A DNA stretch of 64,000 nucleotides from a virus. Below the pieces are notes generated by a model, which did not search any database, had not been told where the DNA came from, and was given only the letters and a program-made list of their open reading frames with translations. Of this stretch, positions 9,122-46,040 are shown piece by piece. Position 1 is the first letter of the stretch. Every line of letters starts with the position of its first letter. Made by a program: the position numbers and the translations under genes. Location of the stretch: the IMG/VR virus record IMGVR_UViG_3300005466_000024, positions 96,001-160,000 of that record; one strand, written 5' to 3'.

Positions 9122-10810
9122 TTACACGCGGCTTGCCGAGAAGTCCGCGATCAGCTGCGGCACGGTGGAGTCGAAGCCCGAGATGTCCATCTGCCGCAGC
9201 GGATCCCGGGGGTCGCACACGCTGGTGCCGGTGGCAGTCATGGCGACGACGACCAGCTTGGCATCGATGCCCATCTTCTGACGGTACTGCTCCAGCGCCT
9301 GGTACGGGTGGACGTCCCCAGCCCAGGTCTCGTTGTCGGTCCAGACCGTGAAGGTGTCGATCGCCACCTTGTTGGCCGCCGCCCACAGCATCGGCAGGGC
9401 CACGTCGGTGCCCCCGGCGGACAGCTGGCTGATGTAGCGGACCACATCGTCCAGCCGACGGCGGGGACTGATGTCCAGCTCGGTGAGGCCACGGCCGCCC
9501 CGGCCGATACCCCTCTGCCACCCACCCGAGCAGAAGCCGGCCACCCGGTAGTCCTTCTCGGTGTTGGCGGTCACCAGGGAGATGGCCGCGCACGCCTCCC
9601 GCGGCGCGAGTGGCAGGCCCGAGCAGTCCAACCAGTCCGCCACCTTGCCCGCCATCGACAGCGACACGTCCAGCGCGATCAGGGTGCGCTTGTTGGCGGG
9701 TTCCACCGCGCCGTAGGACGCGTAGAACGCGGCATCGAGCGCGTCGGTGATCCGGCGATGCGGTGTCCAGTTCAGCTTGCCCTTCTCGCCGTGGCCCTGG
9801 GCGTAGGTCTTCTGCGCCACCAGCACGTCGACCGGGTGCACGCGGGCCCGCTTGAGCACCTCGGGGTTCTGCAGCTGATCGGCAACCAGCTTCATCGTGC
9901 CCGAACCCAGGTTCAGGTTGGTGATCCGCGGCAGCTGGCGCAGCAGCGCGGTCTGCGGCAGGGTGTGGCTGATCAACGACTCCCAGACCAGCGCCTCGTT
10001 GAGGTACTCGTCGGGGATCATCTCCCAACTGATGTTGCCGTTGTCGTTGAGCACCGCGAGCACGTCGCGCACATGGGTGGCCGACCGCAGTCGCCGATAG
10101 GCCTCGACCAGTTCGGGCAGCGGGGTGTCGACCGGGTTGCCATACAGATCCCGGCCCTCGCCGTGGGCCTTGCGGCGGGTGCCGGCGCTCGGGCTGGTGG
10201 CCGCCAGCCAGTTGTACAGCGCGTTGTGCGCGGCATCGCCGACCGGGTGGGCCTGGCGCAGCACGTCGTCGTGGCGCATGTTCTCCCGGTTGCGGTACTT
10301 GAGCACCTGGTAGGCGACTTGGTCGACGGGCTTCTCGTTGTACCAGCGGGCGATGGCCTTGACGAACGCGGGGCCCCAGCCGCGGAACTGTTCGGCGTAC
10401 TTGATGAACGTGAACAGCGTGGAACCGGTTCGCGCCACCTGGGGCAGCACCGCCAGGGCGGTGCGCCGGGCGTCGTCAGTGCCGTGGCTGGCCGCAACGG
10501 CCAGAGCGAACAGCGCCGGGTTCTGCTTGGGGGCACGGCCAGCCACGGAGATCTCAACGATGTGGTTGATGACCTTCACCGGGTCGGCGGCTATCGCGCG
10601 GAACAGCACGTCGGCGTTCTCGCGGGTCAGATCCTTCGCCGACGTGTAGTACGTGGAATCGGCCGTGCCCAACGTCAGGAACCGATGCAGCCTGGCTTCG
10701 TCGCTGATCTCGAAGACGTAGCCTCCGGCAGCGTTTTGCACCTGCTCGAGGCGCGCCTTCTGGTGTTGCGGCGTGCTACGGGTGCTGATCGAAGTCAGGA
10801 TATCGGCCAT
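9122..10810 (-). CDS. rsr: Ro60 ortholog (TROVE + vWA domains)
   Basis: QNAAGGYVF, RFLTLGT..STYY, GWGP, KYRNR, DVSLSM (MIDAS), TDNETWAG, DISGFDS. Confidence 0.95.
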   Translation of the reverse strand: MADILTSISTRSTPQHQKARLEQVQNAAGGYVFEISDEARLHRFLTLGTADSTYYTSAKDLTRENADVLFRAIAADPVKVINHIVEISVAGRAPKQNPALFALAVAASHGTDDARRTALAVLPQVARTGSTLFTFIKYAEQFRGWGPAFVKAIARWYNEKPVDQVAYQVLKYRNRENMRHDDVLRQAHPVGDAAHNALYNWLAATSPSAGTRRKAHGEGRDLYGNPVDTPLPELVEAYRRLRSATHVRDVLAVLNDNGNISWEMIPDEYLNEALVWESLISHTLPQTALLRQLPRITNLNLGSGTMKLVADQLQNPEVLKRARVHPVDVLVAQKTYAQGHGEKGKLNWTPHRRITDALDAAFYASYGAVEPANKRTLIALDVSLSMAGKVADWLDCSGLPLAPREACAAISLVTANTEKDYRVAGFCSGGWQRGIGRGGRGLTELDISPRRRLDDVVRYISQLSAGGTDVALPMLWAAANKVAIDTFTVWTDNETWAGDVHPYQALEQYRQKMGIDAKLVVVAMTATGTSVCDPRDPLRQMDISGFDSTVPQLIADFSASRV

Positions 10811-10837: not shown

Positions 10838-10978
10838 GGTGTGGGCATCGATAGGTGAGCACCGGGAACCCTTTCGGGCACTTGCTCTGCCAACTGAGCT
10901 ACGGGGCCGGGGCCCCGGCAGGATTCGAACCTGCGACCCAGTGATTAACAGTTAACCGATGTTCGTCCGGCTCACACC
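10838..10978 (-). ncRNA. YrlA-like Y RNA 1 (141 nt), circularly permuted tRNA mimic, Asn-like
   Basis: Terminal stem GGTGTGAGC/GCCCACACC; inside, CTGTTAA, then T arm GCAGG-TTCGAAT-CCTGC, a closed acceptor hairpin, then D arm GCTC-AGTTGGCA-GAGC. Confidence 0.85.
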
Positions 10979-10992
10979 GTCTTCAGTTTTGG

Positions 10993-11128
10993 GGATGCGG
11001 GCATCCATTGGCGCCGACCGGGTTTTAGCGACTTAGGCCACTCGTCCATACCTGTTCCCAGGCAACGGGATTTGAACCCGTGTCTCTCTCTTGCAGGGAG
11101 ATAACCAATCAACTTCCGGCTCGCATCC
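10993..11128 (-). ncRNA. YrlA-like Y RNA 2 (136 nt), circularly permuted tRNA mimic, Cys-like
   Basis: Stem GGATGCGAGC/GCCCGCATCC; CTGCAAG loop; T arm ACGGG-TTCAAAT-CCCGT; acceptor TGCCTG-GGAA-CAGGTA; D arm GAC-GAGTGGCCTAA-GTC. Confidence 0.8.
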
Positions 11129-11138
11129 AACGTTAGGG

Positions 11139-11213
11139 GGTGCAGGCATCCATGTAGTGACTCCCGGGGGGTATCTTCACATTAGATAACCGAGTGTCAT
11201 TCCGGCTTGCACC
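11139..11213 (-). ncRNA. Minimal Y RNA 3 (75 nt)
   Basis: GGTGCAAGCCGGA...CTCGGTTA...ATGGATGCCTGCACC; same motifs and covarying stems, no tRNA domain. Confidence 0.75.
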
Positions 11214-11233
11214 GATATCCAATTCTTGTGCAG

Positions 11234-11303
11234 AGAGCAGGCATCCATAGACGAGACCGAATTTTCGTGGCTGGAAGGTAACCGATCTCATGCGGCTTGC
11301 CCC
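11234..11303 (-). ncRNA. Minimal Y RNA 4 (70 nt)
   Basis: GGGGCAAGCCGCA...ATCGGTTA...ATGGATGCCTGCTCT; second stem TGAGATCG/CGGTCTCG. Confidence 0.7.
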
Positions 11304-11361
11304 CTGTGGCATCGTCGACCTTACTGCTTTCGGTCACCGACCACCAACTTCTTTTCCGCGT

Positions 11362-27353: not shown

Positions 27354-27443
27354 ACCCTTTTTCCTGTGAACGCCCGAGCGACCTTGTATCAGCTAGGCTT
27401 ACAGGTATTCCCCCGACGAGGAATCCGGTTTCTTGCCTCCGGC

Positions 27444-27983
27444 TCAAGGGCAAGTGGTGGATCCCGCTTCCCGGTTCAGCATCGGTGGCGCCCCTGAGAG
27501 GGTCCCCGCTACGGCGGGGACCTTTCTCGGCTCCAGGTACGTCATCCGTCCATCGGCGTACCGGTAGGTTTCGGCGACATCCCGCGCCAACTCGAGGCAA
27601 CCGGGTGTGCCGGGGCCGTCGAGCGGGAAACCCATGCACACGTCGATACCGGAGTCGACCATCTCCTTGTTGCGGACGTAGCCGGCGCAGGCGTAGAAGG
27701 TGGTGCCGTCGCGGCGGCGGCGCTGATGGTGGCAGTACTCACCGCAGGGGGTGTTCCAGTCGGCGGGGTGCGGCTCGTGATCGATGCGTTGATCCCACCG
27801 ACGGCGCTGCTGCACCCATTCCATGGCGATGGTGTCCCCGCCGCGAGCTTTGCCGTGCACCACGATGAACCGCTCGCCGGAGCCAGGATGCTGATCAAGC
27901 CACCACTGGTAGAGATCCTCGAGATAGTTCTCGATGATCCTGGGTTCGCTCCACTTACGTGAAGCCGTGACCAGAACCCTCAC
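27444..27983 (-). CDS. SLOG-family protein (DUF2493/YspA-like)
   Basis: VLVTASR.W, VHGKARGGD..A..W, ADW, AGYVRNKEMV, PGT. Confidence 0.8.
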   Translation of the reverse strand: MRVLVTASRKWSEPRIIENYLEDLYQWWLDQHPGSGERFIVVHGKARGGDTIAMEWVQQRRRWDQRIDHEPHPADWNTPCGEYCHHQRRRRDGTTFYACAGYVRNKEMVDSGIDVCMGFPLDGPGTPGCLELARDVAETYRYADGRMTYLEPRKVPAVAGTLSGAPPMLNREAGSTTCP

Positions 27984-45538: not shown

Positions 45539-45766
45539 CTATTCGTCCTCGGCGTCGAACGTCACCGTGAATGCACGACCTTGAGTGAACTCCTTGATCG
45601 CGGCGGTGTCGTTGCCGATGTACATCTCGAACACACCGGCGGGGGTGGCCGCCGCCCAGTCCTTGTTGCGGCCCTGGGCGTAGTCGGGCACCAGCCGCAC
45701 GCGGCTGGCCTGATACCCGGCACTGTTGACGATCTCACTGACTTTGAATTTCGCTGTGACGCTCAT
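45539..45766 (-). CDS. Hypothetical protein
   Basis: GGAGG RBS; AKFKV...NK.WA.ATPAG.FEM.I.N. Confidence 0.65.
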   Translation of the reverse strand: MSVTAKFKVSEIVNSAGYQASRVRLVPDYAQGRNKDWAAATPAGVFEMYIGNDTAAIKEFTQGRAFTVTFDAEDE

Positions 45767-45791
45767 CTGTTTTTCACCTCCTCTCTCCACT

Positions 45792-46014
45792 TGTTCCGAT
45801 GAGAACTCCTGCTAGTCTGCTCCCGTCGGTACCTGACCATCGATGCCCGCGTTGGAAACGAGCCGGACTGGAATCGATATCGCAGCGGTAGCTCAATCGG
45901 TTAGAGCACCCGGACCGCACACACCGGGGGATGTCCGTTCGACTCGGACCTGCTGCCCGACCCTGAATCGTGAGCAGTCTTGTAGGCCAACACTCGGTGA
46001 ACTCATCGGTGACA
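45792..46014 (+). ncRNA. Putative permuted Y RNA: Ro-binding domain (45826..45877) fused to a tRNA-like domain inside long outer stems
   Basis: ATCGATGCCC then GAGCCGGAC with the array's spacing; second stem GGAATCGA/TCGGTACC; outer stems 45808-22/45972-86 and 45796-803/46002-09. Confidence 0.65.
45882..45957 (+). tRNA. tRNA-like cloverleaf with a non-canonical 10-nt anticodon loop; no encoded CCA
   Basis: Acceptor GCAGCGG/CTGCTGC, D arm GCTC/GAGC, stem CCCGG/CCGGG with loop ACCGCACACA, T arm GTCCG-TTCGACT-CGGAC. Confidence 0.75.
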
Positions 46015-46040
46015 GAGACTGACAGGAGCAAACTGAACCC

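What the first reader, a model, noticed from the sequence alone, without database searches (positions are those of the whole stretch)
45792..46014. Orphan, inside-out Y RNA: permuted Ro-binding domain fused to a normally ordered tRNA, 35 kb from rsr
Seen: the array's 3' motif (ATCGATGCCC, 45839-48, identical to unit 1) comes first and its 5' motif (GAGCCGGAC, 45860-68, identical to unit 1) second, joined by a 9-nt loop. The pairing keeps the same A.C mismatch between G-C pairs. The second Y stem is also present with unit 1's 9+4 spacing: GGAATCGA (45870-77) pairs with TCGGTACC (45826-33) at 7 of 8 positions. A full cloverleaf follows 4 nt later. Outer stems (13/15 bp at 45808-22/45972-86; 8/8 at 45796-803/46002-09) close the unit. 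In YrlA the tRNA is permuted and the Ro stem holds the RNA ends; here the reverse holds. I do not know of this topology being described. Inference: a new Y RNA class acting in trans with the phage Rsr, or a Ro-gated tRNA precursor.
Basis: partly seen in the sequence, partly recalled or inferred. Interest (0 to 1): 0.92.

Follow-up and report, generated by a model that had tools for sequence, protein, structure and literature searches.

The report
Permuted Y-RNA stem beside odd tRNA
In a 180-kb soil actinophage that has a Ro60 (Rsr) gene and four Y RNAs, a second locus 35 kb away holds both halves of the Y-RNA protein-binding stem in swapped order next to a tRNA-shaped gene that cannot decode; it is most likely a rearranged piece of a Y-RNA array that may still bind Rsr, but expression and binding are untested.

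Summary
At 45826-45877 both strands of the phage's Y-RNA stem module are present in the order 3' half, loop, 5' half. The two core motifs are identical to array unit 1, and such a pair is expected by chance about 2e-4 times per genome. The second stem keeps unit 1's spacings and carries one compensatory G-C to A-U change. Four nt downstream lies a well-formed tRNA fold (Rfam 48.5 bits) with a 10-nt anticodon loop containing no U. The flanks form a 31-38 bp closing stem well beyond chance (0 of 500 shuffles).

The "new class" reading is only partly supported. The order 3' motif, spacer, 5' motif is what every junction between tandem Y units looks like. A relative has the neighbouring 75-aa gene directly beside a five-unit Y array and rsr. 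So the locus is probably a piece of an array left by rearrangement.

Nearest-neighbour energies do not favour the proposed hairpin (pair probabilities 0.02 or less). Only two alleles exist, 97.7% identical. No similar arrangement was found in Cali or five other Rsr phages, and no expression data could be obtained.

Best guess (0.45): a still-functional, bipartite Y-like RNA. Main rival (0.3): a fossil.

The parts
45791..45825 (+). 5' strand of the long closing (outer) stem.
   Evidence: RNAduplex pair list. Significance 0/500 shuffles. Also part of the MFE fold.
45826..45833 (+). TCGGTACC, the counterpart of the 3' strand of Y stem 2 (unit 1 has CCGGTG).
   Evidence: Pairs 7/8 with 45870-77. 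C to T here matches G to A at 45877 (G-C to A-U relative to unit 1).
45839..45848 (+). ATCGATGCCC, the Y-RNA 3' core motif, identical to array unit 1.
45849..45859 (+). Closing G-C pair plus a 9-nt loop, standing where canonical Y RNAs have their terminal stem and free ends.
   Evidence: Allele 2 has G to A and a 4-nt insertion here.
45860..45868 (+). GAGCCGGAC, the Y-RNA 5' core motif. It contains GCCGGA, the counterpart of the GNCGAA Ro60 site. Identical to unit 1.
   Evidence: Motif definition from PMC4201824.
45870..45881 (+). GGAATCGA (5' strand of Y stem 2) followed by the linker TATC, a remnant of the TTATC/TTAAC box.
   Evidence: Allele 2 has a 1-nt insertion in the linker.
45882..45957 (+). 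tRNA-shaped gene in normal arm order. The anticodon loop is 10 nt, ACCGCACACA (45914-23), with no U. The discriminator is C and no CCA is encoded.
   Evidence: ARAGORN tRNA-???. Rfam RF00005 48.5 bits. 76/76 identical in allele 2.
45969..46015 (+). 3' strand of the closing stem.
   Evidence: Four substitutions in allele 2: two keep a pair and two break one.
10838..11302 (-). Array of four Y-RNA-like units upstream of rsr. This is the source family of the motifs.
   Evidence: The unit next to rsr scores 51.2 bits against Rfam YrlA, below the gathering score of 69.
9122..10810 (-). rsr (Ro60 ortholog), intact.
   Evidence: Pfam TROVE 1.4e-44 and vWA_Ro60 1.5e-52.
45542..45766 (-). 75-aa gene transcribed divergently from the element. 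Its ortholog in L070 lies beside a Y array and rsr.

Best explanation
The locus is a rearranged piece of a Y-RNA array that is still used as an RNA.

Origin:
- Two neighbouring Y units were truncated, so that the 3' half of one and the 5' half of the next remain. This is the order found at any junction in a tandem array.
- The second unit now runs, right after its TATC box, into a tRNA-shaped gene.

Proposed working:
- Transcribed rightward, the roughly 225-250-nt RNA folds as a three-way junction closed by a long imperfect stem (45791-45825 with 45969-46015).
- One branch is a hairpin in which the two retained halves pair with each other. This rebuilds the Y stem module: stem 2, the 4/8-nt internal loop, and the GAGC/GCCC core with its A.C mismatch. 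The module is capped by a loop where normal Y RNAs have their ends.
- The other branch is a tRNA-like domain that keeps every tertiary-fold nucleotide but cannot decode (10-nt anticodon loop, no U33).
- The hairpin would dock on the phage Rsr ring in trans, alongside the four array Y RNAs.
- The tRNA-like domain would play the role that the permuted tRNA-like domain plays in YrlA.
- RNase P cleavage at 45881/45882, or RNase III cleavage in the closing stem, could separate or release the modules.

Shown: the sequences, motif identity, spacings, tRNA fold, closing-stem significance, and the pattern of allele differences.

Inferred: transcription, formation of the weak hairpin, Rsr binding and processing.
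For: - Both core motifs are identical to unit 1, and their co-occurrence is expected 1.9e-4 times per genome.
- The spacers between motifs and stem 2 have the same lengths as in unit 1 (4 and 8 nt) but unrelated sequence. Stem 2 carries a double change that keeps a pair (AUCGG/CCGGU to AUCGA/UCGGU).
- The tRNA fold scores 48.5 bits, with canonical U8, A14, G18G19, the T-loop UUCGA and a 7-bp acceptor stem.
- The flank duplex gives -36.5 kcal/mol against shuffles at -20.5 +/- 3.4 (0/500). It is 6 kcal/mol better on the + strand because of G-U pairs.
- In the only other allele (97.7% identity over 4.9 kb) I count seven changes in the unit: 5 substitutions and 2 indels. All fall in the loop, the linker or the outer stem. 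None falls in the 111 nt of the tRNA plus Y stems (0.5^7 = 0.008).
- The 4-nt and 1-nt indels rule out coding.
- The G to A change in the loop would break a pair of the competing MFE hairpin but is neutral for the Y-type hairpin.
- rsr is intact.
- Precedents: Thermus phage phiLo Ro60 binds simple hairpin Yrl RNAs carrying the CGAA motif (PMC12135203). M. smegmatis YrlA is cut by RNase P (PMC4201824). Cluster C mycobacteriophages carry a Y-like unit among their tRNA genes, 34 kb from Ro.
Against: - The Y-type hairpin is not the predicted fold: -8.7 kcal/mol constrained against an MFE of -15.5, with pair probabilities 0.02 or less.
- The duplex of the two halves is no better than shuffles.
- The terminal stem is reduced to one extra G-C pair.
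- The GGTTA box, conserved in every Y unit seen here, reads GATAT.
- Rfam YrlA does not hit the locus even at E = 10.
- No sigma-70-type promoter or terminator was found.
- Motif-only similarity is also what a recent copy of an unknown array unit would show, so selection on the orphan itself rests on two alleles only. For the Y stems alone, the absence of changes is not significant (P about 0.15).
- Allele 2 weakens the closing stem (-44.5 to -36.0 kcal/mol).
- The arrangement was not found in any other lineage.
Confidence: 0.45

Rival explanations
1. Fossil. The Y halves are an inert scar left when an ancestral Y array beside the 75-aa gene was split or relocated. They sit next to a degenerate tRNA pseudogene. 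The motifs are intact only because the event is recent or by luck, and nothing binds Rsr.
For: - The motif order equals that of the array junctions.
- L070 has the 75-aa ortholog next to a five-unit array plus a TROVE gene, with a NUMOD4 homing-endonuclease gene in between. This marks a region prone to rearrangement.
- The 75-aa gene has a different neighbourhood in every relative examined.
- The hairpin is thermodynamically disfavoured and the GGTTA box is lost.
- The anticodon loop is non-canonical.
- Allele 2 carries a 4-nt insertion next to the 5' motif and a weakened outer stem.
Against: - All tertiary-fold positions of the tRNA are intact, and it is 76/76 conserved between alleles.
- The closing stem is far beyond chance and favours the + strand.
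- A compensatory pair in stem 2 and exactly kept spacings occur despite unrelated spacer sequence.
- All seven allele differences avoid the tRNA and the Y stems.
Confidence: 0.3
2. A tRNA-like RNA or a 5'-UTR/processing element of the rightward operon (46041 onward) whose function has nothing to do with Rsr. The closing stem and the tRNA fold are the functional parts, for example as an RNase III/RNase P processing cassette or a decoy for tRNA-targeting host enzymes. The Y halves are passengers.
For: - The significant features are the tRNA fold and the closing stem.
- There is no terminator between the tRNA and the 90-aa gene, whose GGAG ribosome-binding site lies just beyond the stem.
- This is the only tRNA-like gene the phage has, apart from a doubtful ARAGORN call at the contig end.
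Against: - It does not explain why 19 nt of Y core motif, stem 2 and both spacings are kept exactly.
- No homolog of the 90-aa gene in other contexts carries such an element.
Confidence: 0.14
3. A Y RNA of normal, Yrn1-like topology. GAGCCGGAC (45860-68) pairs not with the upstream motif but with TGCCC at the tRNA 3' end and trailer (45954-59). The Ro helix then extends from the acceptor end of a normally ordered tRNA-like domain, and the upstream 3' motif is a leftover of the preceding unit.
For: - The tRNA 3' end plus trailer (TGCCC-G-ACCC-T-GAATC) resembles the unit 1 3' end plus flank (TGCCC-AC-ACCC-C-GAATC).
- D. radiodurans Yrn1 has D and T arms in the opposite order to YrlA relative to the 5' end (PMC4201824).
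- RNAfold finds a leader-trailer pairing when the upstream half is left out.
Against: - The pairing would overlap two acceptor-stem pairs and offers only about 5 bp.
- The first half of the 3' motif is absent downstream: no match with 1 mismatch or fewer between 45958 and 46100.
- The overall alignment to the array is not significant (score 42 against shuffles at 34 +/- 6).
Confidence: 0.08
4. Chance resemblance. The motifs and stems are coincidental features of a G+C-rich intergenic region.
For: - The single 9-mer is common (33 hits with 1 mismatch or fewer against 38.5 expected).
- The whole-unit MFE z-score is -0.74.
Against: - The exact pair is expected 1.9e-4 times per genome.
- In addition there are a matching stem 2, matching spacings and an adjoining tRNA fold.
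- The flank duplex was matched by 0 of 500 shuffles.
Confidence: 0.01

Closest known systems
YrlA-type bacterial and phage Y RNAs (Rfam RF02553; Chen et al. 2014, PMC4201824)
   Same: - The same phage-specific core helix as the YrlA-like unit next to rsr: GAGCCGGAC / ATCGATGCCC with the A.C mismatch.
- The same second stem and the same internal-loop spacings.
- Association with a tRNA-like domain.
- The genome encodes an intact Rsr.
   Different: - The helix strands are in reversed order and capped by a loop instead of holding the RNA ends.
- The tRNA-like domain is in normal order with a free acceptor end and its own anticodon arm. It is not the T arm, closed acceptor, D arm permutation.
- The locus is 35 kb from rsr on the other strand, whereas Chen et al. 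report nearly all within 4 kb on the same strand.
- There is no Rfam YrlA hit.
Inter-unit junctions of tandem Y-RNA arrays (this phage 10838-11302; Cali; L070; G002)
   Same: The same order (3' motif, spacer, 5' motif) and the same motifs. The flank GCCCGC(G/A)T resembles the 3' end of unit 2.
   Different: - The spacer is only 11 nt, against 25-31 nt in the array.
- The partner halves of both units are missing, so each half can pair only with the other.
- A complete tRNA fold follows.
Deinococcus radiodurans Yrn1
   Same: A Y RNA with D and T arms in the opposite order to YrlA relative to the 5' end (PMC4201824).
   Different: In Yrn1 the Ro helix is formed by the RNA ends around the tRNA-like part. 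Here the helix is a separate 5' hairpin and the tRNA has its own acceptor stem.
Thermus phage phiLo Yrl1/Yrl2 (PMC12135203)
   Same: Phage Ro60 ligands that are simple hairpins carrying the CGAA-type motif, with binding shown by EMSA and cryo-EM. A loop-capped Ro helix as such therefore has precedent.
   Different: - They are encoded directly upstream of the Ro60 gene.
- No tRNA domain is described.
- Which side of the helix their loop closes was not checked here.
Y-like unit inside the tRNA cluster of cluster C mycobacteriophages (Cali 93875-94000; noted here)
   Same: A Y-type module encoded among tRNA genes about 34 kb from the Ro gene, in the phage group whose Ro gene is the closest named relative (67% nt identity).
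   Different: That unit has normal topology, with its ends paired, and lies between two ordinary tRNAs. It has no permutation, no closing stem around a tRNA, and different motif sequences.

Membership tests
Y RNA / YrlA (RF02553) | A helix carrying the Ro60-binding motif (GNCGAA-like 5' strand with a mismatch or bulge) | tested here: met
   GAGCCGGAC and ATCGATGCCC are identical to the phage's own unit 1, including the A.C mismatch. The motif definition comes from PMC4201824. This is a sequence-level result only.
Y RNA / YrlA (RF02553) | The Ro helix is formed by the 5' and 3' ends of the RNA (terminal stem) | tested here: not met
   The strand order is reversed, and the helix is closed by a G-C pair plus a 9-nt loop on the side where the ends should be.
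Y RNA / YrlA (RF02553) | A match to the covariance model at or above the gathering score (69 bits) | tested here: not met
   There is no YrlA hit at the locus even at E = 10. The unit next to rsr scores 51.2 bits.
Y RNA / YrlA (RF02553) | A tRNA-like domain in permuted order (T arm, closed acceptor hairpin, D arm) | tested here: not met
   The cloverleaf is in normal order with an open acceptor stem.
Y RNA / YrlA (RF02553) | Encoded within about 4 kb of rsr on the same strand | tested here: not met
   The locus is 34.9 kb from the array and on the opposite strand.
Y RNA / YrlA (RF02553) | The conserved GGTTA(T/A)C box after stem 2 | tested here: inconclusive
   The locus reads CGATATC. The TATC part is kept and the GGT part is changed. 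The box is present in all units of this phage, Cali, L070 and G001.
Y RNA / YrlA (RF02553) | Physical binding to Ro60/Rsr | not testable with these tools
tRNA (RF00005) | A cloverleaf with conserved tertiary-interaction nucleotides and a score at or above 29 bits | tested here: met
   48.5 bits over model positions 1-71. ARAGORN also calls a tRNA.
tRNA (RF00005) | A 7-nt anticodon loop with U33 and a readable anticodon | tested here: not met
   The loop is 10 nt, ACCGCACACA, with no U. ARAGORN gives 'tRNA-???'. It is the same in allele 2.
tRNA (RF00005) | Aminoacylation and use in translation | not testable with these tools
   No close tRNA relative was found that would assign an identity.
Yrn1-type Y RNA (D. 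radiodurans) | A Ro helix formed by the ends flanking a normally ordered tRNA-like part | tested here: inconclusive
   The only downstream partner for the 5' motif is TGCCCG, which overlaps the acceptor end. There is no full 3' motif downstream.

The most novel reading that the evidence does not exclude
This is a new architecture of Ro60-associated RNA. The Rsr-binding helix is turned inside out: it is loop-capped where Y RNAs normally have their ends and open toward the junction. It is mounted with a free-ended, non-decoding tRNA on a three-way junction closed by a 31-38-bp stem. The RNA is encoded away from rsr and acts in trans, for example to load Rsr onto, or gate the processing of, a tRNA-like effector.
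Probability: 0.35. Interest if true: 0.75.

Novelty: new variant of a known kind. Interest (0 to 1): 0.5.

Why it matters
Y RNAs are defined by a terminal helix that binds Ro60 and an effector module. How these modules arose, and how much their connectivity can change, is unknown.

If this RNA is made and binds Rsr, three things would follow:
- The Ro site works when its connectivity is reversed.
- A Y module can be combined with a complete, free-ended tRNA fold.
- Phages keep Rsr ligands outside the rsr cassette.

The second point bears on the proposed tRNA origin of bacterial Y RNAs. Together with the Y-like unit found here inside the tRNA cluster of about 200 cluster C mycobacteriophages, the locus suggests that Y modules and tRNA genes exchange places in actinophage genomes.

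If it is a fossil, it is still a clear example of how circular permutation of an RNA gene can arise from a tandem array.

Tried and rejected
- **Homolog searches.**
  - blastn of the locus against 50,697 phage records found nothing.
  - The first viral contigs pattern gave 33 hits, all chance.
  - A specific pattern (3' motif, 5' motif, D arm) gave 0 hits in viral contigs.
  - The same pattern gave 7 hits in metagenomes, of which only L062 and L063 are real.
  - Six further contigs are 100% identical to the window.
  - Covariation analysis was therefore impossible.
- **Neighbour-gene synteny.** Homologs of the 75-aa gene and of the 90-aa gene carry no such RNA.
- **Parent tRNA.** Searches in phages and in 185,579 genomes found only chance matches and unrelated tRNAs.
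- **Alignment to the array.** A whole-locus alignment is not significant (42 against 34 +/- 6). The similarity is confined to the motifs.
- **Folding statistics.** The whole-unit and hairpin folds are not significant. The duplex of the two Y halves is no better than shuffles.
- **Other Rsr phages.** No permuted motif pair lies outside the array in Cali. No Y 5' motif is followed by a normal-order D arm in five other Rsr phages.
- **Promoter and terminator scan.** It found nothing in the intergenic region.
- **Expression.** Two encoding-contig look-ups did not run.
- **Considered and rejected.**
  - Invertible segment or MITE: the inverted repeats are imperfect, I saw no direct-repeat target-site duplication at the repeat boundaries, and all 9 contigs have the same orientation.
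  - attP relic: there is no integrase nearby.
  - Protein-coding (ORF 45843-46022): the 4-nt and 1-nt indels in allele 2 shift the frame.
  - Retron-type msr/msd RNA: no reverse-transcriptase gene follows the locus.

Full report
**Setting.** The window is bases 96001-160000 of a 180,705-bp IMG/VR virus record.
- Its rsr gene (9122-10810, minus strand) is intact, with TROVE and Ro60 vWA domains. It is about 67% identical in DNA to the Ro gene of cluster C mycobacteriophages.
- Upstream of rsr, on the same strand, are four Y-RNA-like units (10838-11302).
- They share a 5' motif (R)AGCCG(S)A, a box (A/C)T(C/T)GGTTA and a 3' motif AT(S)GATGCC.
- Their terminal stems differ in sequence but all pair, always with an A.C mismatch.
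- The unit next to rsr matches Rfam YrlA at 51.2 bits, below the gathering score of 69.

**The observation.**
- ATCGATGCCC (45839-48) and GAGCCGGAC (45860-68) are exact copies of the two strands of unit 1, in reversed order.
- They are joined by a closing G-C pair and a 9-nt loop.
- Such an exact pair within 5-30 nt is expected 1.9e-4 times in this genome.
- The second Y stem is present too. GGAATCGA pairs with TCGGTACC at 7 of 8 positions.
- Relative to unit 1 (AUCGG/CCGGU) the orphan reads AUCGA/UCGGU, a double change that keeps the pair.
- The spacers have unit 1's lengths (4 nt and 8 nt) but unrelated sequence.
- Four nt later starts a tRNA fold at 45882-45957 (ARAGORN; Rfam tRNA 48.5 bits).
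- That fold has all the usual tertiary-interaction nucleotides. Its anticodon loop is 10 nt, ACCGCACACA, with no U, so it cannot be an ordinary decoding tRNA.
- It is the only tRNA-like gene in the genome, apart from a doubtful 97-nt ARAGORN call at the contig end.

**The outer stems.**
- The whole-unit MFE is unremarkable (z = -0.74).
- A direct test of the two flanks is clear. Regions 45788-45825 and 45958-46018 form a duplex of -36.5 kcal/mol, against -20.5 +/- 3.4 for dinucleotide shuffles (0 of 500).
- With the full flanks it has 38 pairs and -44.5 kcal/mol.
- The + strand version is 6 kcal/mol better than the - strand version, owing to G-U pairs. This fits an RNA on the tRNA's strand.
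- The outermost pairs join the complement of the leftward gene's ribosome-binding site to the rightward gene's GGAG. That is partly a by-product of the divergent gene arrangement. The inner 31 pairs are significant without them.

**What weakens the functional reading.**
- The Y-type hairpin is not what RNAfold predicts.
- The duplex of the two halves is no better than shuffles.
- The terminal stem of 5-7 bp seen in the array units is replaced by a single extra pair.
- The GGTTA box is present in every Y unit examined: this phage, Cali, L070 and the AT-rich phage G001. Here it reads GATAT, and only the following TATC is kept.
- Rfam YrlA gives no hit.
- No sigma-70-type promoter or terminator was found.

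**Origin.**
- The order 3' motif, spacer, 5' motif is exactly that of the three junctions inside the phage's own array. With exact motifs, these three junctions and the orphan are the only such pairs in the genome.
- The sequence after the orphan's 3' motif is GCG(T), or GCAT in allele 2. It resembles the 3' terminal-stem strand of unit 2.
- The orphan therefore looks like the 3' end of one unit followed by the 5' half of the next, through the TATC box, and then a tRNA.
- The divergent neighbour, a 75-aa gene, has a 91% identical ortholog in the metagenome contig L070. There it lies beside a NUMOD4 homing-endonuclease gene, a five-unit Y array and a TROVE gene.
- In other relatives the same gene sits in a glycosyltransferase cluster.
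- A rearrangement that split an ancestral array is therefore a plausible origin, though the breakpoints could not be reconstructed.
- Tandem duplication followed by truncation is also the classical route to a circular permutation.

**Comparative evidence.**
- Searches of phage records, IMG/VR, JGI metagenomes and 185,579 genomes found only one other allele (L062/L063). It is 97.7% identical over 4.9 kb.
- Six further contigs from different samples are identical to the window.
- I count seven differences in the unit:
  - a G to A change and a 4-nt insertion in the hairpin loop;
  - a 1-nt insertion in the linker;
  - four substitutions in the 3' strand of the closing stem, of which two keep a pair and two break one.
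- None of the seven falls in the 111 nt of the tRNA plus Y stems (0.5^7 = 0.008). For the Y stems alone this is not significant (about 0.15).
- The indels exclude a coding function.
- The loop change would break a pair of the competing MFE hairpin but is neutral for the Y-type hairpin.
- The closing stem is weaker in allele 2 (-36.0 kcal/mol).

**Is it a class?** No equivalent was found elsewhere.
- Cali has no permuted motif pair outside its array.
- Five other Rsr phages have no Y 5' motif followed by a normal-order D arm.
- There is related precedent, however:
  - Cluster C phages carry an unannotated, normal-topology Y-like unit between tRNA-Met and tRNA-Cys, 34 kb from Ro. It is conserved in 202 records and folds with z = -4.0.
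  - Thermus phage phiLo Ro60 binds simple hairpin Yrl RNAs (PMC12135203).
  - D. radiodurans Yrn1 has its D and T arms in the opposite order to YrlA relative to the 5' end, and M. smegmatis YrlA is cut by RNase P (PMC4201824).

**Verdict.**
- The element is Y-array-derived (confidence about 0.85).
- It is bracketed by a real closing stem and includes a conserved tRNA fold that cannot decode.
- Whether the inside-out helix forms and binds Rsr is open. I put a functional bipartite Y-like RNA at 0.45, a fossil at 0.3, an Rsr-independent tRNA-like or UTR element at 0.14, and a Yrn1-like alternative pairing at 0.08.
- It is a new variant of a known kind, so far confined to one phage lineage.
- Expression and binding experiments are needed.

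Noticed in passing
L085 1376-1501 (Mycobacterium phage Cali NC_011271.1 93875-94000, + strand): An unannotated Y-RNA-like unit of normal topology lies between tRNA-Met and tRNA-Cys in the tRNA cluster, 34 kb from the Ro gene and its three-unit array. Its form is CCAAGGCCGA-N8-TCGGTTA ... CCGGAC-N7-CATGTCTTGG. RNAfold gives z = -4.0 and Rfam YrlA gives 20.6 bits over the full length. It is 95% or more identical in 202 cluster C phage records, with no feature annotated under it in any of the 12 records listed.
   Followed up: partly
L070 764-2000 (JGI Ga0642625_00908): A relative has five tandem Y units (motifs GGGCCGGA / CTTCGCCT) upstream of a TROVE gene. A NUMOD4 HNH endonuclease gene lies between the array and the 91% ortholog of the 75-aa gene that neighbours the orphan.
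   Followed up: partly
L045 1500-1810 and L048 1501-1631 (IMGVR_UViG_3300037067_002413): In a tightly packed YrlA array the tRNA model hits 'tRNAs' with 29-60-nt inserts in the anticodon loop. These are the D arm of one unit plus the T arm of the next, so they are an artefact of tandem permuted units. The same phage has a lone YrlA-type tRNA-like element followed by a terminator, 60 kb from its rsr.
   Followed up: partly
window 11308-11330 (- strand), just upstream of array unit 4: TCGGTGAC ... ACGATGCC resembles the 3' end of a truncated fifth Y unit at the upstream edge of the array. The similarity is weak (8 of 9 nt) and the spacing differs.
   Followed up: no
window 45953-45969 vs 10847-10831 (- strand): The tRNA 3' end plus trailer (TGCCC-G-ACCC-T-GAATC) resembles the unit 1 3' end plus flank (TGCCC-AC-ACCC-C-GAATC). 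This may be a trace of a common origin or of an alternative pairing partner for the 5' motif.
   Followed up: partly
window 45920-45925 vs 10979-10974 (- strand): CACACC in the tRNA-like anticodon loop and stem equals the 3' terminal-stem strand of unit 1, so it is complementary to unit 1's 5' GGUGUG. It is a 6-mer only, so a trans pairing is speculative.
   Followed up: no
L078 1-45 (Mycobacterium marinum GCA_002249865.1 contig LYXC01000149.1): A 57% identical homolog of the 90-aa gene lies in a prophage end, between the 3' half of a host tRNA-Arg(UCU) gene and an integrase-like gene.
   Followed up: no
genome C1 180538-180634 (outside the window): ARAGORN calls a 97-nt 'tRNA-Gly (acc)' at the very end of the contig. 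It is doubtful.
   Followed up: no
window 45882-45957: The Rfam run at gathering thresholds returned nothing for the window. The E-value run, however, gives this tRNA 48.5 bits against a gathering score of 29. The default speed filters apparently lose it.
   Followed up: no
window 27424-27499 (+ strand): A weak match to the Rfam wcaG RNA (25.8 bits, E = 1.1, gathering score 42), probably chance.
   Followed up: no
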